Virus record (IMG/VR): IMGVR_UViG_3300045988_123324
Span: 32,001-96,000 of that record
Source of the DNA: a virus
Length of the DNA stretch: 64,000 nt
Reading direction: 5' to 3' (one strand)
Shown here: positions 24,798-57,135 of the stretch, in pieces
How the letters are laid out: each line of letters begins with the position of its first letter
How positions within the stretch are numbered: position 1 is the first letter of the stretch
The notes under the pieces: model-generated
The model's database searches: none
The model's input: the letters and a program-made list of their open reading frames with translations, nothing else
Told to the model about the DNA's origin: nothing
Program-made: the position numbers and the translations under genes

Positions 24798-25673
24798 TTA
24801 GAACAACTCCTTCATTGTTTCCTTGATCTTATCTGTAACCATAACATTCAATAACTTAAAATTAACATTTGGATTCTTATACTTCTTAACGAAGTTATAC
24901 GTTTCTTCTTTTACAAACTCACGCCACACAACGCCAATAAGTCTAGGAATCATTTTACTGTTCCACTCACCAGCATCATTCACAATCTTCTCATACTCTT
25001 TTCGGATAAACTGCTCTGTGCAAAAGTTATCAACTATATCCTTTTCAACACTCTTACCATCAATAGGTTTATTTGCTTTCTTTGTCTGCTTAAACTCCCC
25101 GCGAACTATCTTAGCCCATGTAGTTCGACCATATTTATTTGTGTAGTCATATCGCTTTACACAAATACCCTCGCCAAGATTTCCTTCTGTTTGTAGAAAT
25201 GTGCATTTATCAACATATTCTCTTACTTGTTCCTCTGTCGGATTTTCAGGTTTTGCAATCAGCGGAATATACTCAATTCCAAATTCTTCGAGCATCGGAA
25301 CATATTCTTCATAAGCAAGATATGAGCCATCCTCTCGCATAACATCAAAAACATACAGCTTTCTCCAAGCATCCTCTTCGTATGTGCGAATATGGTGCTT
25401 TACAAGCCATTCACCATACAGATAAACATTTGTGTGTTTCTCAAAAAACTTCTTGAATTTTTCTTGGGATAATACATAAGCATATGATCCTGCATTATCA
25501 TTTTCTATAGTAAGTTGTCTGTTTCTGCTTCCTCCACATACAACACCATCTTTATCAAACAGCACCATGTTACTTCCATCCAACTTCGTAAACAGATACA
25601 CAGTTCCATTAAGTATTCCTTCAACCTCTGACGTTCCAAGTCTTTCGACATGCTGATACTTCTGATAAATCAT
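24798..25673 (-). CDS. ATP-dependent RNA/DNA ligase (nucleotidyltransferase superfamily, Rnl2-like size)
   Basis: KxDG adenylation motif FTKLDGSN near the N-terminus, and a later YLYGEW motif. At 291 aa it is too short for a classical DNA ligase with an OB domain. Confidence 0.6.
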   Translation of the reverse strand: MIYQKYQHVERLGTSEVEGILNGTVYLFTKLDGSNMVLFDKDGVVCGGSRNRQLTIENDNAGSYAYVLSQEKFKKFFEKHTNVYLYGEWLVKHHIRTYEEDAWRKLYVFDVMREDGSYLAYEEYVPMLEEFGIEYIPLIAKPENPTEEQVREYVDKCTFLQTEGNLGEGICVKRYDYTNKYGRTTWAKIVRGEFKQTKKANKPIDGKSVEKDIVDNFCTEQFIRKEYEKIVNDAGEWNSKMIPRLIGVVWREFVKEETYNFVKKYKNPNVNFKLLNVMVTDKIKETMKELF

Positions 25674-32239: not shown

Positions 32240-32698
32240 TTAAAAATCTTTTCCTCTGTATAAAATTCTTTGATTTGAACTGCCCCTAAACTCAAGGTTT
32301 AAGTCTCTTAGTTCGTCAACATATCTTCCATCTACCAAGACATCTATATACTTTAGTATTTCATCCTTTCCGTTGACTTTTAGTTCTTCTAGTGTATATC
32401 CCGTGTAACACCACTTCTCCTTATTATCTATGCTTTTAGCCAATTTTAGTATAGTAGAATAGTTTTCATCTGCTAATGGCTCTCCTCCAAGAAATGAAAC
32501 TCTTTCAATGTATGGTCTTGATACAAGGTAAAAAAACTTATTTTCTATTTCACTTGTCCAAATCTTTCCTTCTTGGAAGTTCCATGTTGTCTGATTAAAG
32601 CAATTTTTACAATGAAAATGGCATCCTTGCACAAACAGTGCAACACCAATTCCACGCCCGTTGCTTATATCCATATCTCTTAAACTAGCATATCTCAT
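32240..32698 (-). CDS. nrdG: anaerobic ribonucleotide reductase activating protein (radical SAM)
   Basis: CHFHCKNCFN (CxxxCxxC) cluster, 152 aa, overlaps the end of nrdD. Confidence 0.85.
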   Translation of the reverse strand: MRYASLRDMDISNGRGIGVALFVQGCHFHCKNCFNQTTWNFQEGKIWTSEIENKFFYLVSRPYIERVSFLGGEPLADENYSTILKLAKSIDNKEKWCYTGYTLEELKVNGKDEILKYIDVLVDGRYVDELRDLNLEFRGSSNQRILYRGKDF

Positions 32699-33698
32699 GA
32701 TTATCTAAGTGAACATACCTTTCTTTTATTTCTTGTGTACGTCCTTGATTAAAGAAATTGGTGCTCAAATATCCACAAACCCTGCGTGTTATATTCATCT
32801 TCTCATGGTTTGTGTTGCCACAATTAGGACATCTCCAATCTAGCTTTCCATTATTATCGTAAATCTCAAACTCTCCTTCATACATACACTCATGACAGTA
32901 GTCGGATTTTGTGTTTATTTCTGCATATTGAGACGTTTCATAAATATACTTTATGAACTGTAACAGTGCTTCTACATTATTCATCATGTTTGCACTCTCA
33001 CAGTATGAGATGTTTCCTCCACCACTCAGTAATTGAAACTTAGACTCAATAGCCAGCTTATCAAACGGATTTATCTCTTCCCCAACAAATACATGATATG
33101 AGTTTGTGATGTAATTTCTATCAGTTATTCCTTCAATCTTTCCAAACCTACTTTGTAGACACTTAGCAAACTTATATGTGGTGGATTCTATTGGAGAACC
33201 ATAAGGAGAATAATCAATATCTTCTTCTTCTTTCCATTTATTGCAAGCATCATTAAGTTTTTGCATAACAGTAAGACCGAACTCTTCTCCTTCTGCATTG
33301 TCCGTATGTGAATGTCCAGTCATATACTTTACACACTCATATAAACCAGCATATCCTAGACTTACGGTTGCATACCCGCCTTTAATAAGTCTATCTATTG
33401 TTTCACCCGTCTTTAATCTTGCAAGCGCACCATGTTGCCATAAAATAGGTGCAACATCTGATACTGTTCCAAAAAGTCTGGATAATCTTTCCTTATGCGC
33501 CTTGTGACAAAGCTCCATTCTTTCTTCAAGTATATCCCAAAACAGATCTTTATCACCACCAGAAGATAACGCCACATCTGGTAGGTTTAATGTAACGACT
33601 CCACAATTAAAGCGACCCCAATACTTCTTACCTTTTACCCAATTATTTGCATTTGCAATGTTTGTTTCTACTCTATCTTTGGTTAAAAAACTTCTGCA
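32685..33698 (-). CDS. nrdD: anaerobic ribonucleoside-triphosphate reductase, exon 3
   Basis: Frame is open upstream of the track start and reads CRSFLTKDR..VVTLNLPDVALSSGG. C-terminal zinc site CHEC..CPNCG and glycyl-radical motif RRVCGYLS. Confidence 0.85.
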   Translation of the reverse strand, partial: CRSFLTKDRVETNIANANNWVKGKKYWGRFNCGVVTLNLPDVALSSGGDKDLFWDILEERMELCHKAHKERLSRLFGTVSDVAPILWQHGALARLKTGETIDRLIKGGYATVSLGYAGLYECVKYMTGHSHTDNAEGEEFGLTVMQKLNDACNKWKEEEDIDYSPYGSPIESTTYKFAKCLQSRFGKIEGITDRNYITNSYHVFVGEEINPFDKLAIESKFQLLSGGGNISYCESANMMNNVEALLQFIKYIYETSQYAEINTKSDYCHECMYEGEFEIYDNNGKLDWRCPNCGNTNHEKMNITRRVCGYLSTNFFNQGRTQEIKERYVHLDNHEIC

Positions 33699-34457
33699 CG
33701 TTTTTATCCTATGTCACCATAGGCACTGACTATATCATAACATAGTAACCCATGTTCTCATACGCTTCCAGCGGTGCTTATCCCCACCGTACCATCGAGT
33801 CAACCTCCCGATGCCGAGTTATTCCCTCGAAAATAGTCGATGAACTTTATTCAACAACAAATTCCCAATCAGTATAGTTATTTCTGCTACCACTCAGAAA
33901 TGTTTTGATTCTATGTCTTTCAACACCTGTAATTCTTTGTGCTTCCCGCATAGAACTACAGTGGATTATTTCTCCTGTATATTTATTTTTCACAACAAGA
34001 TTAACACTTTTCTTACTCAAGTAATACCCATTATCATAAGCGTGTTTTATATTTTTACTATGAGTGGAACGCTCTAGGTTTTCAAGTCTATTGTCTGATT
34101 TATTACCATTTATATGATTTACAACCTGTGGATTTCCTAAAAATGTTTCCCCCATAAGCCTATGAACACGTTTCCTATACCTTTTCCCACGAATATGTAG
34201 TACACAGTGCTCATATAAATCTGTTCCAATATAAGATGAAATTAGTCTCATTGTTTCCTTATTTAATATTTTTCCGCTTTTACTGATTGCATATTTATCG
34301 AATCTCTTTATGGTAGTAAATTCTTCGTTGTTGAATCTTAGCACAGACTCAAGTTTATTATTACTCATAATTAACTCCTATCTGTTAGCATGGCTCATGC
34401 CACACACCCAGCAAGCAACTGGTTCATATAAGTTTTACATGGGCTACATTTACACTT
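33699..34457 (-). mobile_element. group I intron carrying an HNH homing endonuclease ORF
   Basis: Interrupts ..WSCMG|CRSFL.. of NrdD. The upstream exon ends in U (GGU) and the intron ends in G. The 3' 150 nt are GC-enriched and ORF-free. Confidence 0.75.
33847..34368 (-). CDS. intron-encoded HNH homing endonuclease
   Basis: NUMOD4-like N-terminus (FDKYAISKSGKILN), HNH_3 core (VNHINGNKSDNRLENLE..HSKN) and a C-terminal HTH-like SMREAQRITGV. Confidence 0.8.
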   Translation of the reverse strand: MSNNKLESVLRFNNEEFTTIKRFDKYAISKSGKILNKETMRLISSYIGTDLYEHCVLHIRGKRYRKRVHRLMGETFLGNPQVVNHINGNKSDNRLENLERSTHSKNIKHAYDNGYYLSKKSVNLVVKNKYTGEIIHCSSMREAQRITGVERHRIKTFLSGSRNNYTDWEFVVE

Positions 34458-34766
34458 ACCCATACAACTCCAAACATCACCTTTGTTCTTTTTCATAACT
34501 TTAGCAGAGATGTAGTCTGGAACAAGTCTCTTTGCAGTGCATTTTGCTGCAAGTTTTGTTAAATACCAATATGGAGCATCTTCTGTTGTATTATCTTCAT
34601 CAAGAACATAAAGGAGCTTTGGAAAAGCAATAGAAAACCTCTGCCCAACGCTGTTTTTCATACCATCAATGCGCTGTTTGAAAAACTCCTCAATTAACAT
34701 GGCAAGCTCTTCTTTATATTCTTGTTCTTCTTGTGTATACATATATATGCTTAAAAATGGCGATTG
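34458..34766 (-). CDS. nrdD: anaerobic ribonucleoside-triphosphate reductase, exon 2
   Basis: Reads QSPFLSIYMYTQEEQ...FPKLLYVLDE...AKCTAKRLVPDYIS...WSCMG. 309 nt, so the introns are phase 0. Confidence 0.8.
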
Positions 34767-35081
34767 CGGATGCCATCAATCCGTAGACTATATCTTCACC
34801 ATATCACCATGTTGGTGACTTAGGTGCGGTGCGCTTCGGGTAATGAACTTTCACCACTACCCTACTCTACTCATTTACTCCCTAATAAATTATTAGGTAC
34901 ACTTTCGATAGTCGTTGCACTTTTCTGCTTTCACAGACTTAGCACAGGATTAGTTCCCTTCCCCTGTTAGCATGATACCGAGTTGTCATTTCCTACAACG
35001 CCTAAACGTGTATCATACACCCTAGATTTCTAAGTTCACACCGTTCAAATATAGTGTTTCCACCATACCGAGCCAATCTTA
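34767..35081 (-). mobile_element. ORF-less group I intron (315 nt)
   Basis: Splits ..SMTNVNG|QSPF... The 5' exon ends in U and the last intron nt is G. The segment has no ORF and is visibly GC-richer than the exons. Confidence 0.7.
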
Positions 35082-35933
35082 ACCATTAACATTGGTCATA
35101 CTATTTAGTTGATAATTAAATGTCTGAACACTATCACTTACTTCCTTCTTTATATCAATATCTGCAAACTTATTTGCCTGTTCCTCCGATAAGCCATTTT
35201 CTATGTACTTTTTATAATATAGTTTTCTGCTATCTCTTACAAATGGCGATAAATGTCCCAAACAAACAGAAGCACCACCGTAACTCATAGAAGTAACTGC
35301 AAGTATTATTTGTGTTGCTATGGTAGTCGCAGTTAAAAGTCTGTGTGGTTTATCAATTCTAACACCGTTTATTACTGTACCATTTTGTAACATATCATCA
35401 AGATTTATTAACTCGCAATTATGTATTCTCTGGCAACTATAGTCCATATCGTGTATATGGATGACACCATCGTTATGTGCTTGAATAACATCTGGTGAGA
35501 ATATATATCGCTCTGCAATATCCTTGCTGACAACTCCTGCTATATAATCCCTTTTAGTGCTAACAAGAAGTGAGTTTTTATTTGAGTTCTCTTCTTTCCA
35601 ATATTCACTTTTATCCCCGATCAAGTCCTTTAGTTCTTCATCCACAGTGTTCTTTGATCTTTGAAACTCTCTGATACTCCTATATCCTTCATAGGACTTT
35701 GCTGTTAGCTTTTGCTTATGCGAGATTAGCTTTGAGAATACAAGCGTCTCTATCTCTTGTATAGTTACAAGTTCCTTGTCTGATTCTATCAGCTCATTTT
35801 CAATTTCATCTGCTATATTATTTGCGATCTTTTCTGAATAAACATTTCCTGCTCTCATGGCTTTTAGTATAGCAACACTGATTTTATTCTTATCAAAAGC
35901 AACTATTCGTCCGTCACGTTTTTCTACTTTCAT
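35082..35933 (-). CDS. nrdD: anaerobic ribonucleoside-triphosphate reductase, exon 1 (ATP-cone plus N-terminal core)
   Basis: MKVEKRDGRIVAFDKNKI is the ATP-cone start. It ends ..YQLNSMTNVNG, followed by an in-frame intron stop. Confidence 0.85.
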
Positions 35934-49788: not shown

Positions 49789-51537
49789 TTAGAATCCTAC
49801 AATTCTTGTTGCATCACTTATTTTTGACTTTGGTTGCATATACATCACACCATACCTAAGTGCATCACAATTATGTATAATAATATCTGACGTAGTGACT
49901 GCAAAACAATGAGTATCTTCTACCTCCATATTATATACATCTTCGTTTTCATGTTTATCTATATGAACAAGTTTTGTATGTGATACTGATGTTTTAATCA
50001 AATCTTCTGTTGTAATGTCTTTTGCCTCTACCCAACCACGATTTACTGTCAAAATCCTATGATCTGGTGTAACATTCAATATGTCTCTTGTATCAAATAC
50101 AAGAGAAATTACTTCTGTATCTTTTCTTGTCATATGAACATCAAAGAATCTTCTCGTGCAACAATATCCATTTTCATCACATGTGATAAGTTCTCCTGTT
50201 TTTCCAACGAGATCTTCTATTGGTATATAACCTTCTGTTGTATTTATCAATGTATCACCAGTTATGCAGGCGTGATCGTCAACCTTACGAGGAAGATCGA
50301 CTCCCCTAAGTTGCGCTTTCTCATCCCAAACGTATGTCTGTAGCTCTCTTATGAGATTTTCACACTGTTCCTCTATCAATATTTTTCCTTGTCCCATGTC
50401 AGACGCAACTGTCCTTATTCCTGGGAGAACATCATTTATAGCATTTTTTGTTTTCATGTGAAATCTTCGTGCCTGTAGTTTAAAACTACTTGCAGAAGGG
50501 TCAACAACTACAACAATCTGTCTGTATGTTCTCTGTGTTAATTCTGTTTCTTCGTTTATAAAATCTCTTAGATCATTTACATATTCTATATCTGTTTTTT
50601 GTGCTTCTTGGTTTCCGTCCTCTTCTTTTACTGCGGCTCGTCCATCAAAATAATATTCTTTGCATACATATATAGTATTATCTATGGTCTTACCGAGCAG
50701 TAAAAATGCTGTCGGGTTTGCTGTGCCTATATCACAACACACACACCAATCTATTATATCTTCATACGGAATATCCGATTGCTTTATGACATGTTCTTTT
50801 TTCTTAAACATATCATATATCAATCCGTCTGCAACCACCCATTTGCCTTCAATGTATCGTTTTGCAAACACGCCACTAAAATTTTTCTTATATCTATCAA
50901 GAACATCTTGTGGTAATGATAAATTATCTTCCATATTAAAATGAACGTATAATCCATCTTTCTCTCTTAGTTTCTTTAATACATTCTTATAAAACCAATG
51001 ATGTGGAGAAGATGGGTTACAATTTATAAACAACTTTGCTCCATCAATAGATAAACGAGATACTGCTTGATTGTAAAAAGACTCTGGCATTAGAACTGCT
51101 TCGTCTAGCAAAAGACCTGCAAGTGTCATACCTTGAATGAGATCTTGTGATGATTCGTCCTTACCACCAAAGATAAAGAAGTAATTTACTACCTCACACT
51201 TAATTATTTCTATGTAGTTCTCTGATCTGTGTTCAATAACATCATAATCTAATGCCATAAGCATCTGTTTCAATGTCATAAGCACGTTTCTTCTGAACGA
51301 TCCTACTGATTTACCACACATCGCAGCATTTTGTTGATTAAACGTGTTCATCATAAACAAAACAAAGGATAACGCCATGCTTACTGTCTTTCCGCTGCGA
51401 ATCGCGCCGTCAGCAATAAGCATAAACGAATCATTTACTGGCGATTTTTCTGTCCACCAACTTAGAACCTTTAATTGCTTGTTTGAAAAGGGTTTAAATT
51501 TAAATGCTGATAATTTCAGTTTCTTGTTATTAGCCAT
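49789..51537 (-). CDS. terL: terminase large subunit containing a mini-intein
   Basis: Walker A ADGAIRSGKT, Walker B LLLDEA, nuclease motifs VVVVDPS and DDHA|..|CDALRY, split by a 133-aa Hint domain. Confidence 0.9.
   Translation of the reverse strand: MANNKKLKLSAFKFKPFSNKQLKVLSWWTEKSPVNDSFMLIADGAIRSGKTVSMALSFVLFMMNTFNQQNAAMCGKSVGSFRRNVLMTLKQMLMALDYDVIEHRSENYIEIIKCEVVNYFFIFGGKDESSQDLIQGMTLAGLLLDEAVLMPESFYNQAVSRLSIDGAKLFINCNPSSPHHWFYKNVLKKLREKDGLYVHFNMEDNLSLPQDVLDRYKKNFSGVFAKRYIEGKWVVADGLIYDMFKKKEHVIKQSDIPYEDIIDWCVCCDIGTANPTAFLLLGKTIDNTIYVCKEYYFDGRAAVKEEDGNQEAQKTDIEYVNDLRDFINEETELTQRTYRQIVVVVDPSASSFKLQARRFHMKTKNAINDVLPGIRTVASDMGQGKILIEEQCENLIRELQTYVWDEKAQLRGVDLPRKVDDHACITGDTLINTTEGYIPIEDLVGKTGELITCDENGYCCTRRFFDVHMTRKDTEVISLVFDTRDILNVTPDHRILTVNRGWVEAKDITTEDLIKTSVSHTKLVHIDKHENEDVYNMEVEDTHCFAVTTSDIIIHNCDALRYGVMYMQPKSKISDATRIVGF
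49870..50268 (-). mobile_element. mini-intein (133 aa, no endonuclease domain) in the terL nuclease motif
   Basis: Block A is CITGDTLI, block B is TPDHRILT, and the C-terminus is IIIHN followed by the +1 Cys. Excision restores VDDHA-CDALRYG. Confidence 0.85.
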
Positions 51538-52213
51538 CTTCCTTTAATGCCTCATCAAGGTCACTATACACATTATCACCTGTCCATGTATCATCAATTC
51601 TTCCAGTAATGGCATCGAGTATTCTGCTATCTTCTTTTGCCTTATTATCCTTCTCTGCTTGCCACTCCATAAAGTCTTTTATTTTATCCCAACATGAAAG
51701 TTTATCTACAAGCTGTATAGTAACTCCATCTTTACCCTGTTTGATACTACTGACAAGAGACATATCCAAATCTTTACTGTTATTTAAGAATACTCTGCTT
51801 CTTTTATTTGTGATTGGTTCGCCAGTATCCATATTTAGAACTGGATTTCCTTCTTTATCAAGAACTGGCTTTTCTTCTTCCTCTACTCTTACATAATCTC
51901 CTATATTTGCATTTGCAGCTTTTAGAAGAAATTCTATGTACTGTGTTGGATCAATATCAAAACCAACTGACATTATCTTTCTTGCTCGCTTTATCGCCGC
52001 TCTAATATGTGGTCTTTGTAGTAGTTCACAAGCCTTAACTCTTGATGTTGTTATATTATCCATATTATATGCCTTGCGATAACTCTGAGCACCGTTGTAT
52101 GATTCTAAATACAGAAGTAGGAATGTCTTTTCATTCTCAGTCATATCACTTCCAAATATTTCTTCAAAAATTTTATCATTTACAACTTCTTTTACGTCTT
52201 TTCCCATATGCAA
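51530..52213 (-). CDS. terS: terminase small subunit
   Basis: N-terminal HTH-like TENEKTFLLLYLESYNGAQSYRKAY....RVKACELLQRPHIRAAI. Overlaps the terL start. Confidence 0.8.
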   Translation of the reverse strand: MHMGKDVKEVVNDKIFEEIFGSDMTENEKTFLLLYLESYNGAQSYRKAYNMDNITTSRVKACELLQRPHIRAAIKRARKIMSVGFDIDPTQYIEFLLKAANANIGDYVRVEEEEKPVLDKEGNPVLNMDTGEPITNKRSRVFLNNSKDLDMSLVSSIKQGKDGVTIQLVDKLSCWDKIKDFMEWQAEKDNKAKEDSRILDAITGRIDDTWTGDNVYSDLDEALKEDG

Positions 52214-52271
52214 TCTCCTTTCTAAATATTATATTTAATTATAACACAATTAATTTGTAAAGTCAATAGAA

Positions 52272-52302
52272 AACACAAAAAGCCCACCATTTCTGGTGAG
52301 CC
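52272..52302 (-). terminator. intrinsic terminator closing non-coding block A
   Basis: Minus strand reads GCTCACCAGAAATGGTGGGCTTTTTGTGTTTTC. Confidence 0.75.
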
Positions 52303-52990
52303 TTATGCGGAAAGGAGACAATTAAAATGAACTAGGACTTCATAAGACTTTCGCCTTACTCCGTCTGTGAGACTAGGCAGGTAAACGCGAATACCATTTT
52401 GCCTAGAGAACACACACGTCTGTCAAAGAACCACTTTATAAGATGTGGTAGAAATACTCCGTGTAAGTCATTTCTATAGCGGCTACATACCCAACGCGCT
52501 TTCCACATCCAGTAGCCATTGCAACAACACCATTATCTTGTTGCTCCCAATCTAGGTTGAAACCTTATCTTCTCTGTAGCAGGATTTTTGGATTTGCACC
52601 AAAGTCTTACAACTGGTTTTGTTGTATGTTCTTCTGTTAAACTAAATCCGCATGGTCGGGCATACAGGTAACGCTCCTGTGTCTTGGGTTTATAAGACCC
52701 CTGCACTCACTTTTGTGCTAATGCCCAATATTTCTTATGTAGCCCCACCCATCGCCCATAAGTTGAAGCCATTCTGACATTCTGCTTTGAGTTGTCAAGC
52801 ATGCGCTTCCTCCTGCTGTTTGTACTTTTGGCTTTTATTATCTAGGCACAGCCTACTCGCACATCATTTTGTTATATATCAGTATTTTGTTTTGCTGTTT
52901 GTGCCTACTCACAAGACGCTTATGGACACCTGCTGTGTTAGATTTGATTTCAGTTCAAATTTATAAATGATTTGCTGTCTGCGTCTTTAT
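52272..52990 (-). ncRNA. candidate large structured non-coding RNA A (approx. 0.7 kb)
   Basis: No ORF of 60 aa or more on either strand. Has its own promoter (52997-53025) and terminator. Long-range helices pair 52981-87 with 52913-19 (AAGACGC/GCGTCTT) and 52900-07 with 52843-50 (TAGGCACA/TGTGCCTA), plus CTAGGCA..TGCCTAG. GC-rich patches sit in AT-rich surroundings. Confidence 0.55.
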
Positions 52991-52996
52991 GTATAT

Positions 52997-53025
52997 ATCT
53001 TACCACATCTTTTTACTGTTGTCAA
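52997..53025 (-). promoter_or_regulatory. sigma-A-type promoter TTGACA-17-TAAGAT driving block A
   Basis: Minus strand reads TTGACA, then ACAGTAAAAAGATGTGG (17 nt), then TAAGAT. The -10 overlaps the stop codon of the upstream vWA gene. Confidence 0.6.
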
Positions 53026-54547
53026 CCCTAATTTCAAAAATTTTATCAACAATTTCGTATCGTGGTAAATTAAGTTGCTTTACAAGAGCCTTATACGGAT
53101 CTAGCTCACTTGACATCACCATATCCATAAGATTCTTGCTGAATCCACTGATAAGAATTACTCCATTTTCATTCTGCGTGAGAGGTACTGTGTTTGTCCT
53201 AGAATTTACGTTCCAGAAAACTAACTTTGGAAGTTTATATCCTTCCTTCTTGTACTTTTCCGCTATGGTTTCAAACAACGCTTTATTGCCCTTTTCATTG
53301 TAATATCCTTGCGCCATGTTGAACTCCATATCACTCACAATTAGTACAGTCTTTGGCATATCTTCTTGTGATACGCCATTCTTTACTGCGGTGTCAAGAA
53401 TAAGATCAAAAACACTCTCAATATTCGTACTTGAAATATCATCATATTTTGCAAGATATTTGAGCTTATCATGAAGATTATCAAGATGTGATACATCAAT
53501 CAACTTAGCCCATGAACTAAACGTGATGAACTTGTCTTTGAACGCTCCTTCATTATTCTCTGCACAATAAAGAGTGATTGCATCTGCAACTTCAAGTGCG
53601 GTAAGACCTGACTTATCAACTGGAACAGTCATAGATCCGCTACCATCACGAACAACAACAGTATCGCTAAACCCATTACACTTATCCTGTGCTTTCCATA
53701 GTTGCTCAAGTGTCTCGTCATAATCCTTATGCACGGCACACCATTCACCAAACTCTGCGTAAGCATGGACAATATCATGGAGAAACATAGCGTTTGCATT
53801 GATCTTTGTCTCACCCTTCTTGAGTGATTCAAGATACTTTTCTCTGCGCTCCCCATCATGACGCTCAAACGCATTACGATAGTTTACATTAGCCTTTGAT
53901 GGAACTGCTGAGTAGTCAATTTCTCCCCACTCATTTTCAGACATCTTACGCTCAACAACATCAATATATGCACGTAGTTCTGATAAAATCTTTCGATATT
54001 CGCTCTTTAGCATACCAAGATAATTGCAGATCATCTTTGCTTTTGCACAAGTTTCTTTACTGCTTGCATTGATGCTAGGAAGCCATTTTGCCAGGAGTGA
54101 TACAGATTTCTTATCATCCATATCTTGCATATCATTCACAAGTTGCTTGTCAATCTTATCTAAAATCATATTGCGAATAAAATCATTGTCTGTACGATAG
54201 GCAATATCTACGTAATCATCCCATCGACCATATTCCGCAATATCAACTTCCTTAATAAAGATATTGGCAAGATCAACATCATATGAGATAAGTTCAAGCA
54301 CAAAGTCTCTAAATGATTTACGCTCGCCGATTCCTTCTCGAACATCCCTAAGATAAAGAAGCCACTTGAGCGTCAGCTTTTCATCCTCATTGAGTGCTTG
54401 CTTAAACAAGTCCTTATCAATAGTCTTTCTAAATGAAGGTACTTGAAAATTTAGATCAACTAACTTACTTCCAGATGTTTTAAATCCAACAGCACCATTC
54501 TCTGTTACTGACTTTTCGTCATTCTCAATCATTTTCATAAAATCCAT
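53000..54547 (-). CDS. DUF2828-type protein: helical TROVE-like N-domain plus C-terminal vWA domain
   Basis: N-terminus ..SVTENGAVGFKTSGSKLVDLNF resembles the DUF2828/TROVE start. The C-terminus has a vWA MIDAS-like VVVRDGSGSM and later VLIVSDMEFN. Confidence 0.6.
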   Translation of the reverse strand: MDFMKMIENDEKSVTENGAVGFKTSGSKLVDLNFQVPSFRKTIDKDLFKQALNEDEKLTLKWLLYLRDVREGIGERKSFRDFVLELISYDVDLANIFIKEVDIAEYGRWDDYVDIAYRTDNDFIRNMILDKIDKQLVNDMQDMDDKKSVSLLAKWLPSINASSKETCAKAKMICNYLGMLKSEYRKILSELRAYIDVVERKMSENEWGEIDYSAVPSKANVNYRNAFERHDGERREKYLESLKKGETKINANAMFLHDIVHAYAEFGEWCAVHKDYDETLEQLWKAQDKCNGFSDTVVVRDGSGSMTVPVDKSGLTALEVADAITLYCAENNEGAFKDKFITFSSWAKLIDVSHLDNLHDKLKYLAKYDDISSTNIESVFDLILDTAVKNGVSQEDMPKTVLIVSDMEFNMAQGYYNEKGNKALFETIAEKYKKEGYKLPKLVFWNVNSRTNTVPLTQNENGVILISGFSKNLMDMVMSSELDPYKALVKQLNLPRYEIVDKIFEIRVDNSKKMW

Positions 54548-54748
54548 GTTTTATTCCTCCTAGACACTAAATAGTCAAACTGCTGTAAATGCCTAAATAC
54601 TCAAGACAGTATCTTGTTAGCTGATTTTAGGTCAGCACAGAATGATTGCTGTTACTGCCTTTTATTTCATATATTCTCTGGTAGGCAATTATATCCTACT
54701 ACAAGTCCGCAAACTTGTCAGCCTATTAAATGTTTCAGAGAAAAATTA

Positions 54749-54835
54749 TGGTGCTGACAGCGAGATTCGAACTCGCACCCACTTAACTAGAACGGTTTTT
54801 GAGACCGTCGTGTCTGCCAATTCCACCATGCCAGC
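54749..54835 (-). tRNA. tRNA-Leu(CAA): tRNA-Leu, anticodon CAA (type II, long variable arm, CCA encoded)
   Basis: Cloverleaf folded by hand. Acceptor GCTGGCA/TGTCAGC, anticodon stem ACGGT/ACCGT, loop CTCAAAA, T arm GCGAG-TTCGAAT-CTCGC. 87 nt. Confidence 0.9.
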
Positions 54836-54847
54836 ATTATATCATAT

Positions 54848-55087
54848 TCAAATTCCAAAGTCAAGTCTTTCTTTTGGAATTTCTTGTTCGTATTCTGTAC
54901 GATAGATTACAACCTTTTCTGCATCATACTTATTATATAACCCAGTTGATAGCAAAATCGCATCCATCTCAGTGTGTACTTCACATAGGATCATATTTCC
55001 GTGTGTTTCTACATTACTGCATAAAGTTTCTAGCTTTTCTACAAGCTCTTTGTTTACTTCTTTATAGTAAGATTTAACGAGAATCAT
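54848..55087 (-). CDS. hypothetical 79-aa protein lying between tRNA genes
   Basis: Start taken at MILVKSYYKE (AAGGAAG RBS). The longer ORF-track start would overlap tRNA-Arg. Confidence 0.45.
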   Translation of the reverse strand: MILVKSYYKEVNKELVEKLETLCSNVETHGNMILCEVHTEMDAILLSTGLYNKYDAEKVVIYRTEYEQEIPKERLDFGI

Positions 55088-55111
55088 ATTATCTTCTTCC
55101 TTATTAACAAA

Positions 55112-55187
55112 TGGTACGCCTAGAGGAACTCGAATCCCCGACAAGTGCTTTAGAAGAACACTGCTCTTCCAACTGAGCTATAGGCGT
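55112..55187 (-). tRNA. tRNA-Arg(TCT): tRNA-Arg, anticodon UCU (CCA encoded)
   Basis: Acceptor ACGCCTA/TAGGCGT, D arm GCTC-AGTTGGAA-GAGC, anticodon loop CTTCTAA, T arm GGGGA-TTCGAGT-TCCTC. 76 nt. Confidence 0.9.
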
Positions 55188-55191
55188 ATTA

Positions 55192-55267
55192 TGGAGCTTC
55201 TAGCTAGGATTGAACTAGCGACCTACTGATTACAAATCAGTCGTTCTACCAACTGAACTATAGAAGC
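55192..55267 (-). tRNA. tRNA-Thr(TGT): tRNA-Thr, anticodon UGU (CCA encoded)
   Basis: Acceptor GCTTCTA/TAGAAGC, D arm GTTC-AGTTGGTA-GAAC, anticodon loop TTTGTAA, T arm GCTAG-TTCAATC-CTAGC. 76 nt. Confidence 0.9.
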
Positions 55268-55268
55268 A

Positions 55269-55552
55269 TGGTGGAGCTGACGGTATTGAAACCGTGTCCA
55301 GAGACTACTTTCATATAAACCTTATACACGCTTGTTGAAAAGGTTTTGGTAGATTAGGTCTACCAGCCCAATGACATAGTTGGTTTTATTAGACCACTAA
55401 CAACATAACCAACTAGAAAAGTTATTAGTAGTTGCTTTTAAGCCGCTAGGCTGTAAACTTCGTTTTCGTCAGTTCTTTTGTTTGCTGTTTTACTGGTACG
55501 CCCCAGACGTGAGTTTATATGTAGTTTTCCTCTGTCGAAACCTTTCAGCCCC
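55269..55552 (-). ncRNA. ssrA: tmRNA (transfer-messenger RNA), 284 nt
   Basis: 5' end GGGGCTGAAAGGTTTCGACAGAGG and 3' end GGACACGGTTTCAATACCGTCAGCTCCACCA, matching the canonical tmRNA ends. Internal frame GCA AAC AAA AGA ACT GAC GAA AAC GAA GTT TAC AGC CTA GCG GCT TAA (55438-55485) encodes ANKRTDENEVYSLAA. Confidence 0.85.
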
Positions 55553-55570
55553 GTTACAGTTCTTATTATA

Positions 55571-56314
55571 TCACTGTGAAACATCTTTGTCAAGCATTTT
55601 TTCTGCTTTTTCTTTTGATTCTTTTATTATAGAAATATCTCTCTCGCAATCTGCCTTTATAAATCTTAGATTGATTCCATTTTTCTTGCAAGTCTTAATA
55701 AATTTTCTATATTCTATTTCACTCACAAGATTACTTCTCCCATTTATTGCTTCAACAATATAATCATCTAAGTAAAATACATCAACATTCTTTATTGGTG
55801 ATACATTCATATTTTGGCTATATGCAAAAGTATAAACAGCACACATCAAAGAAAGTTCAAGTGCGTTTATCTCTGTAATCTTAAAGAAAGGCTCTTGGTA
55901 TGTAATTTCTCCATTCTTAACAACTGTATAAGAACAAACATTCTTGTAATTGCCTAAATATATCTTTAAGTAATCTTCTTCAAAAAATAATCTAATTTTC
56001 TTTCTCTTCTTTCTCTCTATTATTCTATATTCCTCAGACAGTCTATATACTATATCTCTTTTGGCAAGACGATCTGTCATTAAAGAAAGTTGTTCTCTAA
56101 AATCTTCAAGACTATATGTATCTTTATACAAATTGCAATCGTGACAAGAAGGATTCAAGTTACTTTCATCATCAGTACCACCTTTACGTACTGCTAAGAT
56201 ATGATCTACTCTTAGATTTTTTCTATCTTCTATGAGTTTTCCACAGTATGCACACCTCTTACCATACTTCATCCACACATTCTGTCTTGTTTTATCTTGT
56301 ATTTTGCTTCGCAT
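55571..56314 (-). CDS. HNH endonuclease with an extra C-terminal domain
   Basis: CAYCGK....VDHILAVRKGGTDDESNLNPSCHDCNLYK HNH core at the N-terminus. The C-terminal 130 aa loosely resemble an RNase H-like layout (TEINALELSL..DVFYLDDYIV). That resemblance is weak. Confidence 0.7.
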   Translation of the reverse strand: MRSKIQDKTRQNVWMKYGKRCAYCGKLIEDRKNLRVDHILAVRKGGTDDESNLNPSCHDCNLYKDTYSLEDFREQLSLMTDRLAKRDIVYRLSEEYRIIERKKRKKIRLFFEEDYLKIYLGNYKNVCSYTVVKNGEITYQEPFFKITEINALELSLMCAVYTFAYSQNMNVSPIKNVDVFYLDDYIVEAINGRSNLVSEIEYRKFIKTCKKNGINLRFIKADCERDISIIKESKEKAEKMLDKDVSQ

Positions 56315-56354
56315 ATTTAACCTCTTTACATTGCAGACAATTTCTCTTTTATTG

Positions 56355-56384
56355 ATTATATCACAAGGTAAATGCTTCTGTCAA
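56355..56384 (-). promoter_or_regulatory. sigma-A-type promoter TTGACA-18-TATAAT
   Basis: Minus strand reads TTGACA, then GAAGCATTTACCTTGTGA (18 nt), then TATAAT, upstream of the HNH gene. Confidence 0.6.
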
Positions 56385-56469
56385 CACATATTTTCCATTA
56401 TCTGTCAAGTAGGTATAGTTATCCTTAAACCAACATACATATATTTTTATTTCATATTATTAAACTCCT

Positions 56470-57100
56470 AACATCGTTTACGTACTTTGTACTTCAACTC
56501 GTTAGGGCTACACAAACCTCGTTTGCTCCGCACTCTCTTCTCTATTTATTTTCTGTATTTTTTTTTCTCTGTGTAACTTAACTTTTTAGGTAAACCCTCA
56601 ATGGGAATTTCACTAGATTTAGGCTATTAGAGGGCATAGTACACCACCTAGGAAACAAAAAAGACGCTAAAAATGGACGCACGAATACACCGCAAAATGC
56701 AGTGTAATTACGATCCATAATTAGTTCTTAGTTGTTTCTCTAGGTGTCCTAACATACATACATAATCAATGAGATTTCACTGAGTTTGAGTATATCGTCA
56801 GGGTTCTGTTTTTACAGAACTAGACTTACTGTTAAGCATTTAAGCAGTCCTCATGCCAGTAAGCCGACCACCCTACCGAAGTAGCCTGCTCCCAACCTAA
56901 CCGATTATAGCCGTTACCGCAGCATATTATTTACATAATATGTCCTCTGTACGCCAGAGGAAGTCCCCATTTTAAGTGTCGCGGCTGGGATAGACCGCGT
57001 GTCCGTATGTCTTACCCTCCAGTTTAGATTTTATCTTACTATATCACTAGACCCATTAGCGAACATAGCCTTGCTAGGTAAGCCCCAATATTTAGTTTGT
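56470..57100 (-). ncRNA. candidate large structured non-coding RNA B (0.6 kb or more; 3' end undefined)
   Basis: No ORF of 60 aa or more on either strand. Promoter at 57107-57135 points into it. Hairpins: CCTCTG/CAGAGG (56944-60), CATATTAT/ATAATATG (56923-42), CTAC-UUCG-GTAG (56873-84), GTTCTG/CAGAAC (56803-20). A long-range helix pairs 56641-56 with 56734-47. GC-rich relative to its flanks. Confidence 0.5.
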
Positions 57101-57106
57101 ATATGC

Positions 57107-57135
57107 ATTATATCACAGAAAAAACCGCTTGTCAA
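57107..57135 (-). promoter_or_regulatory. sigma-A-type promoter TTGACA-17-TATAAT driving block B (divergent partner of the early promoter)
   Basis: Minus strand reads TTGACA, then AGCGGTTTTTTCTGTGA (17 nt), then TATAAT. Confidence 0.65.

What the first reader, a model, noticed from the sequence alone, without database searches (positions are those of the whole stretch)
52272..57135. RNA island: two promoter-equipped non-coding blocks bracket a TROVE-like vWA protein, three tRNAs, a tmRNA and an HNH gene
Between terS and the divergent early promoters lies a 4.9-kb segment in which more than half the bases are non-protein-coding.

In order of minus-strand transcription it contains:
- promoter, then block B (about 0.6 kb, no ORF)
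- promoter, then the HNH gene
- tmRNA, tRNA-Thr, tRNA-Arg
- a 79-aa ORF
- tRNA-Leu
- the DUF2828/vWA gene
- promoter, then block A (about 0.7 kb, no ORF), then a terminator.

Large ornate RNAs such as GOLLD and ROOL are known to sit next to tRNA genes in Firmicutes phages and prophages. Ro60/TROVE-vWA proteins are known to work with dedicated non-coding RNAs (Y RNAs). I do not know of a described module that combines all of these with a tmRNA. Together with the Rnl-like ligase elsewhere in the genome, this looks like a phage RNA-maintenance or translation-takeover module. That function is an inference, not something the sequence shows.
Basis: partly seen in the sequence, partly recalled or inferred. 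Interest (0 to 1): 0.85.

Follow-up and report, generated by a model that had tools for sequence, protein, structure and literature searches.

The report
Phage Ro60-like protein with Y-like RNAs
This stretch of a gut phage genome is a cluster of stable-RNA genes (tRNAs, a tmRNA, a large structured RNA) built around a Ro60-like RNA-binding protein, and next to that protein sit several copies of a small, previously uncatalogued RNA that looks like the protein's own 'Y RNA' partner and recurs beside the same protein in many phages and bacteria.

Summary
On the minus strand, 52.27-57.14 kb carries near-consensus promoters, a 0.7-kb ORF-free block B, an HNH gene, a tmRNA, tRNA-Thr/Arg/Leu, a 79-aa ORF, a DUF2828/DUF7788 gene, an ORF-free block A and a terminator.

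- **Protein.** The AlphaFold model of the DUF2828 protein matches Ro60/TROVE structures over its full length, so "TROVE-like" is supported at fold level.
- **New RNA module.** It has a covarying 7-10 bp closing stem, an invariant ACAGCAA and a variable interior. Three to four copies flank the gene. In loci chosen by protein alone, 16 of 18 DUF2828 lineages carry it, always on the gene's strand. It also lies beside DUF2828 in tRNA-free bacterial loci, often with RtcB.
- **Link to Y RNA.** Longer relatives enclose a YrlA-type permuted tRNA-like domain. I read the module as this family's Y-RNA counterpart. It is not in Rfam.
- **Block A.** A composite: two modules, another hairpin element, a non-canonical tRNA-Ile(UAU), a tRNA-like element and an anti-SD/terminator piece.
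- **Block B.** A structured RNA supported by covariation. It matches no Rfam family and occurs only in this phage clade.
- **Variable parts.** The tmRNA, the HNH gene and the tRNA set differ among relatives, so the "module" is looser than proposed.

The parts
57107..57135 (-). Promoter of block B (TTGACA-17-TATAAT with TG)
   Evidence: 12/12 consensus match. Conserved in relatives (alignments A1 and A4).
56400..57100 (-). Block B: ~0.7-kb structured non-coding RNA of unknown class. The 5' ~200 nt are variable; the core is 56400-56925.
   Evidence: Ten relatives were aligned. RNAalifold gave 93 pairs, 22 of them with compensatory changes, against 11.9+/-2.1 in shuffles and 2-8 in slid controls. 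It contains a C(UUCG)G hairpin. MFE is -210 kcal/mol, z = -5.4. No conserved ORF. No Rfam match at E<=10. Found only in the close clade.
56355..56384 (-). Promoter in front of the HNH gene
   Evidence: 12/12 consensus match. Relatives carry a 124-140-aa ORF at this position instead.
55571..56314 (-). HNH endonuclease gene (247 aa)
   Evidence: Pfam HNH 4.4e-11 and HNH_5. PHROG 2118. Truncated or replaced in some relatives.
55565..55593 (-). Promoter directly upstream of the tmRNA
   Evidence: 12/12 consensus match. The -10 box ends 13 nt before the tmRNA 5' end.
55269..55552 (-). tmRNA (tag ANKRTDENEVYSLAA*)
   Evidence: Rfam RF00023, 79.5 bits against a gathering score of 47, full-length model match, ends in ...UCCACCA. 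Homologues found only in L006, L007, L012 and L053.
55192..55267 (-). tRNA-Thr(UGU)
   Evidence: ARAGORN and Rfam, 72.8 bits.
55112..55187 (-). tRNA-Arg(UCU)
   Evidence: ARAGORN and Rfam, 61.4 bits.
54848..55087 (-). 79-aa ORF of unknown function
   Evidence: ATG preceded by AAGGAGG. A 79-81-aa ORF is conserved in close relatives. No Pfam or PHROG hit.
54749..54835 (-). tRNA-Leu(CAA)
   Evidence: ARAGORN and Rfam, 56.4 bits.
54599..54665 (-). ACAGCAA module copy 0 (stem AAGGCAGUA / UACUGUCUU)
   Evidence: CM R1, 30.3 bits, E = 1.2e-4 over the whole window with filters off. 9-bp closing stem.
54557..54598 (-). Mini ACAGCA module. Its 3' stem strand (UGUCUAGG) runs into the DUF2828 Shine-Dalgarno sequence AGGAGG.
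   Evidence: Stem UUUAGGCA/UGUCUAGG. CM score is 10.6 bits here but 32.5 bits for the same element in relatives. A module abuts the start codon in L008-L011, L013, L016 and L020 as well.
53000..54547 (-). DUF2828/DUF7788 protein (515 aa): Ro60-like HEAT-repeat ring plus vWA domain
   Evidence: Pfam DUF7788 4.5e-46, DUF2828 2.9e-33, vWA_Ro60 0.007. PHROG 850 'RNA-binding protein' 1.4e-127. AF2 pLDDT 75. Foldseek top 8 are Ro60/TROVE, E 1.6e-9 to 9e-5, ~490-575 alignment columns. D-G-S-G-S (a DxSxS pattern, as in MIDAS sites) is conserved: D301, G302, S303 and S305 invariant, G304 in at least 90%.
52997..53025 (-). Promoter of block A (TTGACA-17-TAAGAT with TG), overlapping the end of the DUF2828 gene
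   Evidence: Conserved in 11 relatives (A5).
52909..52991 (-). ACAGCAA module copy 1 (stem AAGACGC / GCGUCUU)
   Evidence: CM R1, 53.5 bits, E = 2.8e-10; the best hit in the whole window.
52839..52907 (-). ACAGCAA module copy 2 (stem UAGGCACA / UGUGCCUA)
   Evidence: CM R1, 37 bits, E = 2.9e-6.
52728..52838 (-). Structured element 'M3': GAAGY...RCUUC stem around a CUUGAC-loop-GUCAR hairpin, followed by a CUUAUG...CAUAAG hairpin
   Evidence: Compensatory change GAAGC/GCUUC to GAAGU/ACUUC. Loop-length indels of 2, 9 and 11 nt rule out the 31-aa ORF. Clade-restricted.
52656..52727 (-). Non-canonical tRNA-Ile(UAU)-like gene. T-loop is AGCGUUA and the D-loop lacks GG.
   Evidence: Rfam tRNA 47.2 bits; not called by ARAGORN. 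It occupies the slot of a canonical tRNA-Ile(tat) in relatives. The same odd version is 94.6% identical in L009 and L039, whose DUF2828 proteins are only 67-68% identical to this one. Cloverleaf MFE, z = -2.7.
52575..52652 (-). tRNA-like 'element 2': cloverleaf with a bulged acceptor stem, anticodon-type loop AAAACCA and T-loop UGCAAAU
   Evidence: The MFE structure is a cloverleaf. It is nearly invariant in relatives while the neighbouring tRNA-Ile varies widely, and its loop is 7-8 nt. Clade-restricted. Not called by ARAGORN and no Rfam match at E<=10.
52365..52574 (-). Optional ~210-nt non-coding module of unknown role
   Evidence: Present in the window, L006, L012 and L047, and partly in L051 and L054. 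Absent in L046, L048 and L049.
52279..52364 (-). Terminal piece: small hairpin, unpaired UCUCCUUUCC (complementary to the terS ribosome-binding site GAAAGGAGA at ~52214-52222), then the intrinsic terminator
   Evidence: Terminator with an 11-bp stem and a T run at 52304-52279. z = -3.4. Weak csRNA-like Rfam match, 24 bits. Conserved in all relatives.
52238..52266 (-). terS promoter (boundary of the island)
   Evidence: 11/12 consensus match. terS at 51530-52213 is Pfam Terminase_2.

Best explanation
The segment is a phage stable-RNA island. Several near-consensus sigma-70-type promoters are positioned to transcribe it on the minus strand.

**Conserved core**
- The core is a Ro60-like protein (Pfam DUF2828+DUF7788: a predicted HEAT-repeat ring plus a vWA domain).
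- Next to it sits a family of small RNAs that I take to be its Y-RNA counterparts.
- Each of these RNAs has a 7-10 bp stem formed by its 5' and 3' ends, an invariant and mostly unpaired ACAGCAA just inside the 5' strand, and a variable AU-rich interior.

**Copies in this window**
- Two copies open the block A transcript.
- One full copy and one mini copy lie in the leader of the protein gene.

**Proposed mechanism (inferred by analogy)**
- The analogy is with Rsr/Ro60-Y RNA, YrlA and phage phiLo Ro60-Yrl1/2.
- The protein ring binds the stem/ACAGCAA handle.
- The resulting RNPs act in quality control, processing or repair of the co-transcribed tRNA-type RNAs. This could be protection or repair after host nuclease attack, together with the phage RNA ligase. 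In other lineages the ligase is RtcB.
- The mini copy whose 3' strand merges with the Shine-Dalgarno sequence probably lets the protein repress its own translation.

**Accessory cargo that differs between relatives**
- The tRNAs, the non-canonical tRNA-Ile(UAU), the tRNA-like element 2 and the tmRNA supplement or manipulate host translation.
- Block B is a separate, early-promoter-driven, highly structured ~0.7-kb RNA of unknown function. It occupies the kind of position that ROOL holds in a different phage contig, L082, which was found through the module motif.

**Shown versus inferred**
- Shown: gene content, promoters and terminator by consensus, the fold of the protein, covariation and distribution of the RNAs, and linkage to DUF2828 and RtcB.
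- Inferred: binding, autoregulation and the repair or quality-control role.
For: **Fold**
- The AF2 model matches Ro60/TROVE structures over its full length. The conserved D-G-S-G-S fits the DxSxS pattern of MIDAS sites.

**The module is a real RNA**
- All 8 stem pairs covary. 64 cells changed on both sides, against 20.5+/-3.3 in shuffles and 4-14 in slid controls.
- The same holds on 130 distinct further hits.
- ACAGCAA is unpaired in about 70% of MFE folds.

**Specificity**
- With the covariance model and filters off, the three best hits in the whole 64-kb window all flank the gene.
- All 129 hits in 48 DUF2828 loci are on the gene's strand.
- In loci selected by protein only, 16 of 18 lineages carry modules: 40 on the same strand and 0 on the opposite strand.

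**Reverse test**
- Scanning by RNA motif alone recovers DUF2828 in 52 of 116 viral stretches.
- It recovers DUF2828 in 59 of 120 stretches from bacterial genomes or MAGs, most with no tRNA nearby.

**Link to Y RNA and repair**
- Long versions enclose a T-arm, a closed acceptor-like hairpin and a D-arm, which is the YrlA layout. They get sub-threshold YrlA hits of 33-43 bits. One lies directly upstream of a DUF2828 gene (L071).
- RtcB is the commonest conserved neighbour: 23 of 89 lineages, always on the same strand.
- Published precedent: Y RNAs are encoded within 2 kb of Ro60 in bacteria and phages and mimic tRNA (PMC4201824). Phage phiLo Ro60 binds two adjacent Y-like RNAs (PMC12135203).
- The window encodes an RNA ligase.
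Against: - No binding or expression data exist.
- The window's own modules lack the tRNA-like domain and the CGAA/GNCGAA motif of described Y RNAs.
- The Rfam YrlA model does not match the window's modules. It reaches only sub-threshold scores on the long relatives, and there it aligns mainly to the tRNA-like part, not the stem.
- The protein has no significant Pfam TROVE hit and only 10-16% identity to Ro60 structures. TM-scores are ~0.33-0.52 (normalised by query length) with high rmsd.
- Many modules sit inside tRNA arrays with no DUF2828 gene in the 5-8 kb held. They often abut tRNAs within 30 nt. A role in tRNA-array processing is therefore not excluded.
- Two DUF2828 lineages (L019, L038) show no module within 1.5 kb.
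- The seed modules were picked by requiring a stem, so the percentage paired is partly by construction. The strand asymmetry and the independent hits are the unbiased evidence.
Confidence: 0.6

Rival explanations
1. The ACAGCAA modules are cis-acting parts of tRNA-array transcripts. They could be leader/trailer helices or spacers that guide RNase P/Z processing, insulate tRNA folding, or prevent premature termination of long untranslated transcripts. Under this reading, DUF2828 is just another frequent resident of such arrays.
For: - 73% of motif-selected viral loci carry tRNAs, up to 29 per stretch.
- Modules are co-oriented with all 672 tRNAs counted within 3 kb (summed over modules). 38 of 150 are followed by a tRNA within 30 nt.
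- Some closing stems enclose a complete tRNA (L070, L063, L106, L116).
- Several large arrays show no DUF2828 in the held 5-8 kb.
Against: - Modules lie next to DUF2828 in loci without any tRNA. These include jumbo phages L022, L026 and L035 and most of the 59 bacterial or MAG loci.
- 16 of 18 protein-selected lineages have them.
- A copy abuts the DUF2828 start codon in many lineages.
- The long forms are YrlA-like.
Confidence: 0.2
2. The island is a loose collection of independently acquired accessory genes (tRNAs, tmRNA, HNH, DUF2828) at a recombination-prone spot between the early promoters and terS. Under this reading there is no functional coupling, and the non-coding blocks are spacers or regulatory leaders.
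For: - Content varies among close relatives. A tmRNA homologue is found in 4 of 10.
- The HNH gene is shortened, or replaced by Bro-N/ANT genes.
- tRNA sets differ.
- An optional 210-nt module comes and goes.
- Block B's 5' domain exists in three versions.
Against: - The DUF2828-module pairing is conserved across lineages down to ~30% protein identity and across phyla.
- Blocks A and B show compensatory changes and nucleotide conservation above that of flanking genes in places.
- All parts share one strand and dedicated promoters.
Confidence: 0.12
3. Block B is a long structured 5' leader that controls the downstream ORF/HNH/tmRNA-tRNA transcription unit, or it is a divergent member of a known large-RNA class. 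Under this reading it is not an independent new RNA.
For: - In relatives no promoter separates block B from the following 124-140-aa ORF.
- No terminator follows block B.
- ROOL occupies an analogous place in L082.
Against: - In the window a 12/12 promoter follows block B, so the downstream genes need no leader.
- No Rfam family (ROOL, GOLLD, HEARO, raiA, OLE, RNase P, introns, riboswitches) matches at E<=10, even when block B is searched alone.
- None of the ROOL consensus motifs printed is visible by eye in block B.
- At 0.7 kb with 13 helices it is far larger than typical leaders.
Confidence: 0.25

Closest known systems
Bacterial and phage Ro60 (Rsr) with Y RNAs (YrlA/YrlB), including the rsr-yrlBA-rtcBA operon
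   Same: - The protein has a ring-plus-vWA fold.
- One to several small RNAs, each closed by a 5'/3' stem, are encoded within 2 kb on the same strand (PMC4201824).
- Long relatives of the RNA carry the YrlA-type permuted tRNA-like domain.
- RtcB is a frequent neighbour.
   Different: - The protein belongs to Pfam DUF2828/DUF7788, not TROVE, and is 10-16% identical to Ro60 structures.
- The RNA handle is a short stem plus ACAGCAA, not the bulged Ro-binding helix or the GNCGAA motif.
- The window's copies have no tRNA-like domain.
- The RNAs are embedded in phage tRNA arrays, often in many copies.
- The Rfam YrlA gathering score is not reached.
Thermus phage phiLo Ro60 with Yrl1/Yrl2 (PMC12135203; PDB 9KOP, 9L5Y)
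   Same: - It is a phage-encoded Ro60 homologue with two tandem Y-like RNAs directly next to the gene.
- It gives the best structural matches to the model.
   Different: - phiLo Ro60 was found in UniProt as a Ro60 homologue, and its Yrls carry the CGAA motif in a large internal bulge.
- Here the motif is ACAGCAA.
- Here the island also carries tRNAs, a tmRNA and a 0.7-kb RNA.
- No PNPase or other partner has been tested.
ROOL and GOLLD large ornate RNAs of phages and Firmicutes
   Same: - Block B is a ~0.7-kb, highly structured RNA with its own promoter, lying beside tRNA genes in a phage.
- A bona fide ROOL lies directly after an ACAGCAA module in L082.
   Different: - Block B does not match the ROOL or GOLLD covariance models at E<=10.
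- None of the ROOL consensus motifs printed is visible by eye in block B.
- It is known from only about a dozen contigs of one phage clade.
Phage T4 tRNA gene cluster with its two small stable RNAs (from my own knowledge)
   Same: A polycistronic phage tRNA operon that also yields small non-tRNA stable RNAs, released by tRNA-processing enzymes.
   Different: The T4 RNAs have no known protein partner, and T4 has no Ro-like gene. No sequence or structure relation was tested.

Membership tests
Ro60/TROVE proteins | HEAT-repeat ring (TROVE module) followed by a vWA domain | tested here: met
   AF2 model with pLDDT 75 and pTM 0.68. The Foldseek PDB top 8 are all Ro60/TROVE over ~490-575 alignment columns, with E 1.6e-9 to 8.8e-5 and TM (normalised by query) 0.33-0.52.
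Ro60/TROVE proteins | Sequence match to Pfam TROVE (PF05731) or to solved Ro60 sequences | tested here: not met
   Pfam gives DUF2828 and DUF7788. vWA_Ro60 scores only E = 0.007, below its cut-off, and there is no TROVE hit. A profile search of PDB sequences found nothing.
Ro60/TROVE proteins | MIDAS motif (DxSxS) in the vWA domain | tested here: met
   D301, G302, S303 and S305 are invariant and G304 is in at least 90% of 15 homologues that are 54-100% identical. That DxSxS defines a MIDAS site is from my own knowledge.
Ro60/TROVE proteins | Binds Y RNA or misfolded RNA | not testable with these tools
   Needs RIP/CLIP or EMSA.
Y RNA / YrlA (Rfam RF02553) | Encoded next to the Ro gene (within ~2 kb) | tested here: met
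   Window copies lie 9-160 nt downstream and 10-118 nt upstream of the gene. 16 of 18 lineages carry them.
Y RNA / YrlA (Rfam RF02553) | Stem formed by the 5' and 3' ends that encloses a large loop | tested here: met
   8 covarying pairs. MFE folds agree.
Y RNA / YrlA (Rfam RF02553) | Conserved Ro-binding helix or the GNCGAA(N)G / CGAA motif | tested here: not met
   The invariant motif is ACAGCAA (A6). GGCGAAAG occurs only in the terminal hairpin of the window and L006, and reads GGUGAAAG in most relatives.
Y RNA / YrlA (Rfam RF02553) | tRNA-like domain (T-arm, closed acceptor-like stem, D-arm) | tested here: not met
   Absent from the window's copies. Present in longer relatives elsewhere.
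Y RNA / YrlA (Rfam RF02553) | Reaches the Rfam gathering score (69 bits) | tested here: not met
   The only YrlA hit in the window is 21 bits, across the tRNA-Thr/Arg pair. Long relatives score 33-43 bits.
tmRNA (RF00023) | Covariance-model score above gathering, a tRNA-like end and a tag reading frame | tested here: met
   79.5 bits against 47, covering model positions 1-374 and ending in UCCACCA. The frame ...ANKRTDENEVYSLAA is followed by a stop. ARAGORN did not call it.
Canonical tRNA (element at 52656-52727) | Cloverleaf with standard D-loop GG and T-loop UUCRANY | tested here: inconclusive
   Rfam tRNA 47 bits, above the gathering score of 29, with a cloverleaf MFE. However, the T-loop is AGCGUUA, the D-loop lacks GG, and ARAGORN rejects it.
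ROOL / GOLLD / HEARO / raiA / OLE (block B) | Match to the family covariance model | tested here: not met
   No hit at E<=10 in 5.3 kb or in block B searched alone. As a positive control, ROOL was found at 351 bits in L082.

The most novel reading that the evidence does not exclude
DUF2828/DUF7788 proteins and the ACAGCAA closing-stem RNAs form a second, very widespread branch of Ro60-Y RNA ribonucleoproteins that has not been catalogued.

- It is found in thousands of phages, in Clostridia and in other bacteria.
- Short forms are minimal Y RNAs.
- Long forms carry YrlA-type tRNA mimics or even whole tRNAs.
- They are built into phage tRNA arrays and into RtcB operons.
- The same handle also marks inserts in tRNA anticodon loops.
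- This points to a protein-guided system for processing, splicing or repair of tRNA-shaped RNAs during infection.
- Block B would in addition be a new large ornate RNA class.
Probability: 0.5. Interest if true: 0.78.

Novelty: new variant of a known kind. Interest (0 to 1): 0.66.

Why it matters
Ro60-Y RNA particles are studied in autoimmunity and in bacterial RNA quality control, but their substrates in microbes remain poorly defined.

- **A large, overlooked sister system.** The protein search returned at least 7,968 homologues. If real, this is a big family with a simple, recognisable RNA handle.
- **A testable hypothesis.** The handle is physically wired into tRNA arrays, tRNA mimics and RtcB operons. 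This makes it testable that Ro-type rings work on tRNA-shaped RNAs during phage-host conflict.
- **Better annotation.** It gives meaning to a widespread DUF and to the many "empty" spacers in phage tRNA clusters.
- **Block B.** It adds a candidate to the short list of large structured RNAs carried by phages.

Tried and rejected
- **Known RNA families.** Full Rfam scans were run at gathering score and at E<=10, with block B also searched alone. They gave nothing for blocks A or B beyond one tRNA hit and a weak csRNA-like match.
- **Annotated phages.** megablast and blastn against INPHARED found no match for the region or for either block.
- **Decayed-gene reading.** Rejected, because indels of 2, 9 and 11 nt fall in hairpin loops and stems show compensatory changes.
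- **Block B as RNase P, T-box or 16S-like.** Short motif resemblances seen by eye (ACAGAACCC, GGUGGU, GGUAACGGC) got no covariance-model support. I dropped them as numerology.
- **Block B homologues outside the clade.** nhmmer on about 280 fetched loci found none. Collection scans found only 3 viral and 3 metagenome contigs.
- **ACAGCAA as a plain 7-mer.** It is common in coding sequence (34 copies in the window), so the 7-mer alone is not diagnostic. A loose regex with 6-bp stems gives about one chance hit per 10 kb. I therefore used the covariance model and strand controls.
- **CM hit at 7539-7608.** It scores 21 bits, lies inside ORF 7054-7974 and lacks the C of the motif. I treat it as chance.
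- **Literature.** Searching for DUF2828 gave only incidental plant and tardigrade mentions. The Burroughs & Aravind 2016 paper on RNA repair systems could not be retrieved. Prior recognition of DUF2828 as TROVE-like therefore cannot be excluded. PHROGs already labels the family "RNA-binding protein".

Full report
**1. What is in the sequence**

On the minus strand, between the divergent early promoters and terS, the window carries these features in order of transcription:
- A 12/12 consensus promoter at 57135-57107.
- An ORF-free stretch, block B, at about 57100-56400.
- A second 12/12 promoter at 56384-56355.
- An HNH gene at 56314-55571.
- A third 12/12 promoter at 55593-55565.
- A tmRNA at 55552-55269.
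- tRNA-Thr and tRNA-Arg.
- A 79-aa ORF at 55087-54848.
- tRNA-Leu.
- A 200-nt spacer.
- A 515-aa DUF2828/DUF7788 gene at 54547-53000.
- A promoter overlapping the gene's end at 53025-52997.
- About 0.7 kb without a conserved ORF (block A).
- A strong intrinsic terminator at 52304-52279.
- The terS promoter.

The tmRNA scores 79.5 bits (gathering score 47) over the whole Rfam model and encodes the tag ANKRTDENEVYSLAA. ARAGORN missed it. Three amendments apply:
- The non-protein-coding share is about one half (47.9% if the 79-aa ORF is counted).
- The tmRNA has its own promoter.
- Block A contains an Rfam tRNA hit at 52656-52727.

**2. Source and relatives**

The DUF2828 protein is identical to a protein that UniRef names "DUF2828 family protein, Myoviridae sp. 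ctqfO1". Nothing similar is in the annotated phage collection.

I fetched ten distinct close relatives from IMG/VR, ENA and Logan. Their proteins are 74-95% identical to this one. All share the same gene order, including both ORF-free gaps.

**3. The protein**

- Pfam gives DUF7788 (4.5e-46) and DUF2828 (2.9e-33). Ro60's vWA domain appears only as a sub-threshold hint.
- PHROGs files the protein under family 850, "RNA-binding protein".
- An AlphaFold2 model (pLDDT 75) was compared with the PDB. Its eight best matches are all Ro60/TROVE proteins aligned over essentially the full length.
- Those matches include Thermus phage phiLo Ro60 (9KOP, 9L5Y), Deinococcus Rsr (2NVO) and human Ro60. E-values run from 1.6e-9 to 9e-5. 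Isolated vWA domains come only after them.
- D-G-S-G-S, which fits the DxSxS pattern of MIDAS sites, is conserved.
- "TROVE-like vWA protein" is therefore supported at fold level, although the sequence-level TROVE test fails.

**4. A small RNA module beside the gene**

I aligned the regions downstream of DUF2828 genes from 40 IMG/VR loci (44-95% protein identity). A recurring unit appeared:
- a 5' strand such as AAGACGC or UAGGCACA;
- one or two nucleotides;
- an invariant ACAGCAA;
- 30-60 variable AU-rich nucleotides;
- the exact complement of the 5' strand;
- usually a G.

The stems differ freely between copies and lineages but always pair. Examples are AAGACGC/GCGUCUU, UAGGCACA/UGUGCCUA, AAGGCUC/GAGCCUU, AAGUUGC/GCAACUU, UGAACGC/GCGUUCA and UGGACAUAU/AUAUGUCCA.

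On 40 seed copies:
- All eight stem pairs show changes on both sides.
- 64 cells changed on both sides, against 20.5+/-3.3 in shuffles and 4-14 when the partner is slid.

Because the seeds were chosen for having a stem, the independent tests matter more:
- A covariance model built from the seeds found 129 hits at E<=1 in 48 DUF2828 loci, every one on the strand of the gene.
- In the whole 64-kb window with filters off, the three best hits are 52909-52991 (53.5 bits), 52839-52907 (37 bits) and 54599-54665 (30 bits). All flank the gene.
- I then applied a strict rule (ACAGCAA plus a stem of at least 7 bp) to loci selected by protein only. 16 of 18 lineages have modules within 1.5 kb. The count is 40 on the gene's strand and 0 on the opposite strand of the same DNA.
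- A fourth, mini copy at 54557-54598 has a 3' strand (UGUCUAGG) that runs into the Shine-Dalgarno AGGAGG of the DUF2828 gene. The same arrangement, with a module abutting the start codon, recurs in several other lineages.
- No Rfam family covers these elements.

**5. Reverse test of the linkage**

I scanned the collections with one stem variant only (AGACGC NN ACAGCAA N25-55 GCGTCT).

Viral contigs:
- 52 of 116 new stretches contain a DUF2828 homologue (31-77% identity).
- 85 of 116 contain tRNAs.
- The model finds 205 modules in 98 of these loci, with the same covariation on 130 distinct sequences.
- In the loci that also hold a DUF2828 gene, all 80 modules are co-oriented with it. Modules are co-oriented with all 672 tRNAs counted within 3 kb, summed over modules.
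- They often abut a tRNA, another module or the gene within 30 nt.

Bacterial genomes and MAGs:
- By my estimate roughly 130 chance matches are expected over the whole collection.
- Even so, 59 of 120 stretches carry DUF2828, and most of them have no tRNA nearby.

Neighbours:
- I clustered the neighbours of 89 DUF2828 lineages.
- RtcB is the commonest conserved neighbour: 23 lineages, always on the same strand.
- A WCX-domain regulator of the kind found with WYL domains is second.
- This mirrors the known rsr-yrlBA-rtcBA arrangement.

**6. Link to Y RNAs**

- Longer hits of the same model enclose a T-arm, a closed acceptor-like hairpin and a D-arm inside the ACAGCAA stem. This is the permuted tRNA-like layout that defines YrlA (PMC4201824).
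- Rfam's YrlA model hits two of them, and two neighbouring elements, at 33-43 bits. That is below its 69-bit threshold.
- One lies directly upstream of a DUF2828 gene in a tRNA-free stretch (L071).
- Other closing stems enclose a complete tRNA.
- The phiLo study shows a phage Ro60 that binds two adjacent Y-like RNAs with a 5'/3' stem and a large internal loop (PMC12135203).
- Together these make the module the most likely RNA partner of the DUF2828 protein.
- The window's copies are minimal forms without the tRNA-like domain.

**7. Block A resolved**

Block A is not one RNA. After the promoter come:
- Modules 1 and 2.
- A third structured element at 52728-52838. It shows the compensatory change GAAGC/GCUUC to GAAGU/ACUUC, and loop indels that destroy the 31-aa ORF.
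- A tRNA-Ile(UAU)-like gene with aberrant D- and T-loops. It sits where relatives have a canonical tRNA-Ile(tat), or a run of four tRNAs in L002. It is 94.6% identical in phages whose DUF2828 proteins are only 67-68% identical to this one.
- A second cloverleaf, "element 2", at 52575-52652. Its loops are non-tRNA-like. It is nearly invariant while the neighbouring tRNA varies.
- An optional 210-nt piece.
- A terminal hairpin with an unpaired UCUCCUUUCC that is complementary to the terS ribosome-binding site, followed by the terminator.

**8. Block B**

- Ten homologues align with an invariant core and three alternative 5' domains.
- RNAalifold predicts 93 pairs in 13 helices. 22 pairs show compensatory changes, against 11.9+/-2.1 in shuffles and 2-8 in slid controls. 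The structure was derived from the same alignment, which is a caveat.
- It contains a C(UUCG)G hairpin and folds far better than shuffles, z = -5.4.
- It matches no Rfam family even when searched alone.
- It is confined to this clade.
- A true ROOL RNA lies directly after a module in another phage array (L082, 351 bits). The type of position is therefore shared, but block B is not ROOL.
- Its function is unknown.

**9. How fixed is the "module"?**

Only the DUF2828 gene and its ACAGCAA RNAs are constant across the lineages compared. The other parts vary:
- A tmRNA homologue is found in four of ten close relatives.
- The HNH gene is shortened or replaced.
- tRNA sets differ.

The window does encode an RNA ligase (PF09414) at 24798-25673. 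That fits a repair theme but is not proof.

**10. Verdict**

- The finding is a new variant of the Ro60-Y RNA theme: a DUF2828-type ring protein with its own, uncatalogued, widely distributed small-RNA family, integrated into phage tRNA arrays.
- It also includes a candidate new large structured RNA.
- Binding, autoregulation and the repair or quality-control role are inferences that need experiments.

Noticed in passing
L116:5945-6214, L116:11196-11346, L116:11817-11939, L099:275-412, L099:1522-1643, L086:1980-2101, L102:2155-2267: tRNA genes in module-bearing phage arrays carry 41-77-nt inserts at the anticodon loop (ARAGORN intron mode; Rfam tRNA hits of 113-151 nt). Two inserts in L116 contain ACAGCAAUUUU. 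This hints that the same handle marks tRNA introns, and RtcB is a tRNA-splicing ligase.
   Followed up: partly
L082:39-667 (-): A bona fide ROOL RNA (351 bits) lies directly downstream of an ACAGCAA module (728-797) within a phage tRNA array.
   Followed up: partly
L070:7254-7375, L063:1312-1434, L106:2795-2917, L116:5674-5803: In some copies the ACAGCAA closing stem encloses a complete, ARAGORN-callable tRNA (Gly, Asn, Ile), as if the stem were a leader-trailer helix around the tRNA.
   Followed up: partly
window 55480-55490 (-), inside the tmRNA: The tmRNA carries ACAGCAAAC, whose GCA is the first codon of the tag frame that I read as ANKRTDENEVYSLAA. It may be coincidence, but it is the same heptamer as the module motif.
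   Followed up: no
window 52309-52318 versus 52214-52222 (-): UCUCCUUUCC, just before the block A terminator, is complementary to the terS ribosome-binding site GAAAGGAGA about 90 nt downstream. Read-through transcripts could mask terS translation, while transcripts from the terS promoter would not.
   Followed up: no
window 54836-54864 (-): An 11/12 consensus promoter ends 1 nt before the 5' end of tRNA-Leu, so its start site would fall inside the tRNA. It may instead drive the downstream module and the DUF2828 gene, or it may be spurious.
   Followed up: no
window 32685-35933 (-): The anaerobic ribonucleotide reductase NrdD is split into two ORFs: 35079-35933 (ATP-cone plus N-terminal part) and 32685-33575 (C-terminal glycyl-radical part). 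About 1.5 kb separates them and holds a 173-aa ORF. This suggests an intron or homing-endonuclease insertion. No intron reached the Rfam gathering score.
   Followed up: no
window 49789-51537 (-): The ORF next to terS, presumably the large terminase by position and by the Terminase_3/6N ORFs at this place in relatives, contains an intein-like insert (CITGDTL...IIHNC). Relatives carry Hom_end/LAGLIDADG inteins or split genes at the same place (L046, L048, L049).
   Followed up: no
L074:1222-1302, L063:2327-2377: Sub-threshold twister-P1 ribozyme matches (41 bits, E about 1e-5) lie inside module-bearing phage tRNA arrays.
   Followed up: no
window 7539-7608 (-): A weak covariance-model hit to the module (21 bits; the motif reads ACAG-AA) lies inside ORF 7054-7974. 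It is probably chance.
   Followed up: partly
window 52656-52727 (-); L009:3993-4084; L039:8733-8824: The same aberrant tRNA-Ile(UAU) (T-loop AGCGUUA, no D-loop GG) is 94.6% identical in phages whose DUF2828 proteins are only 67-68% identical to the window's. This suggests either selection for the odd form or recent exchange.
   Followed up: partly
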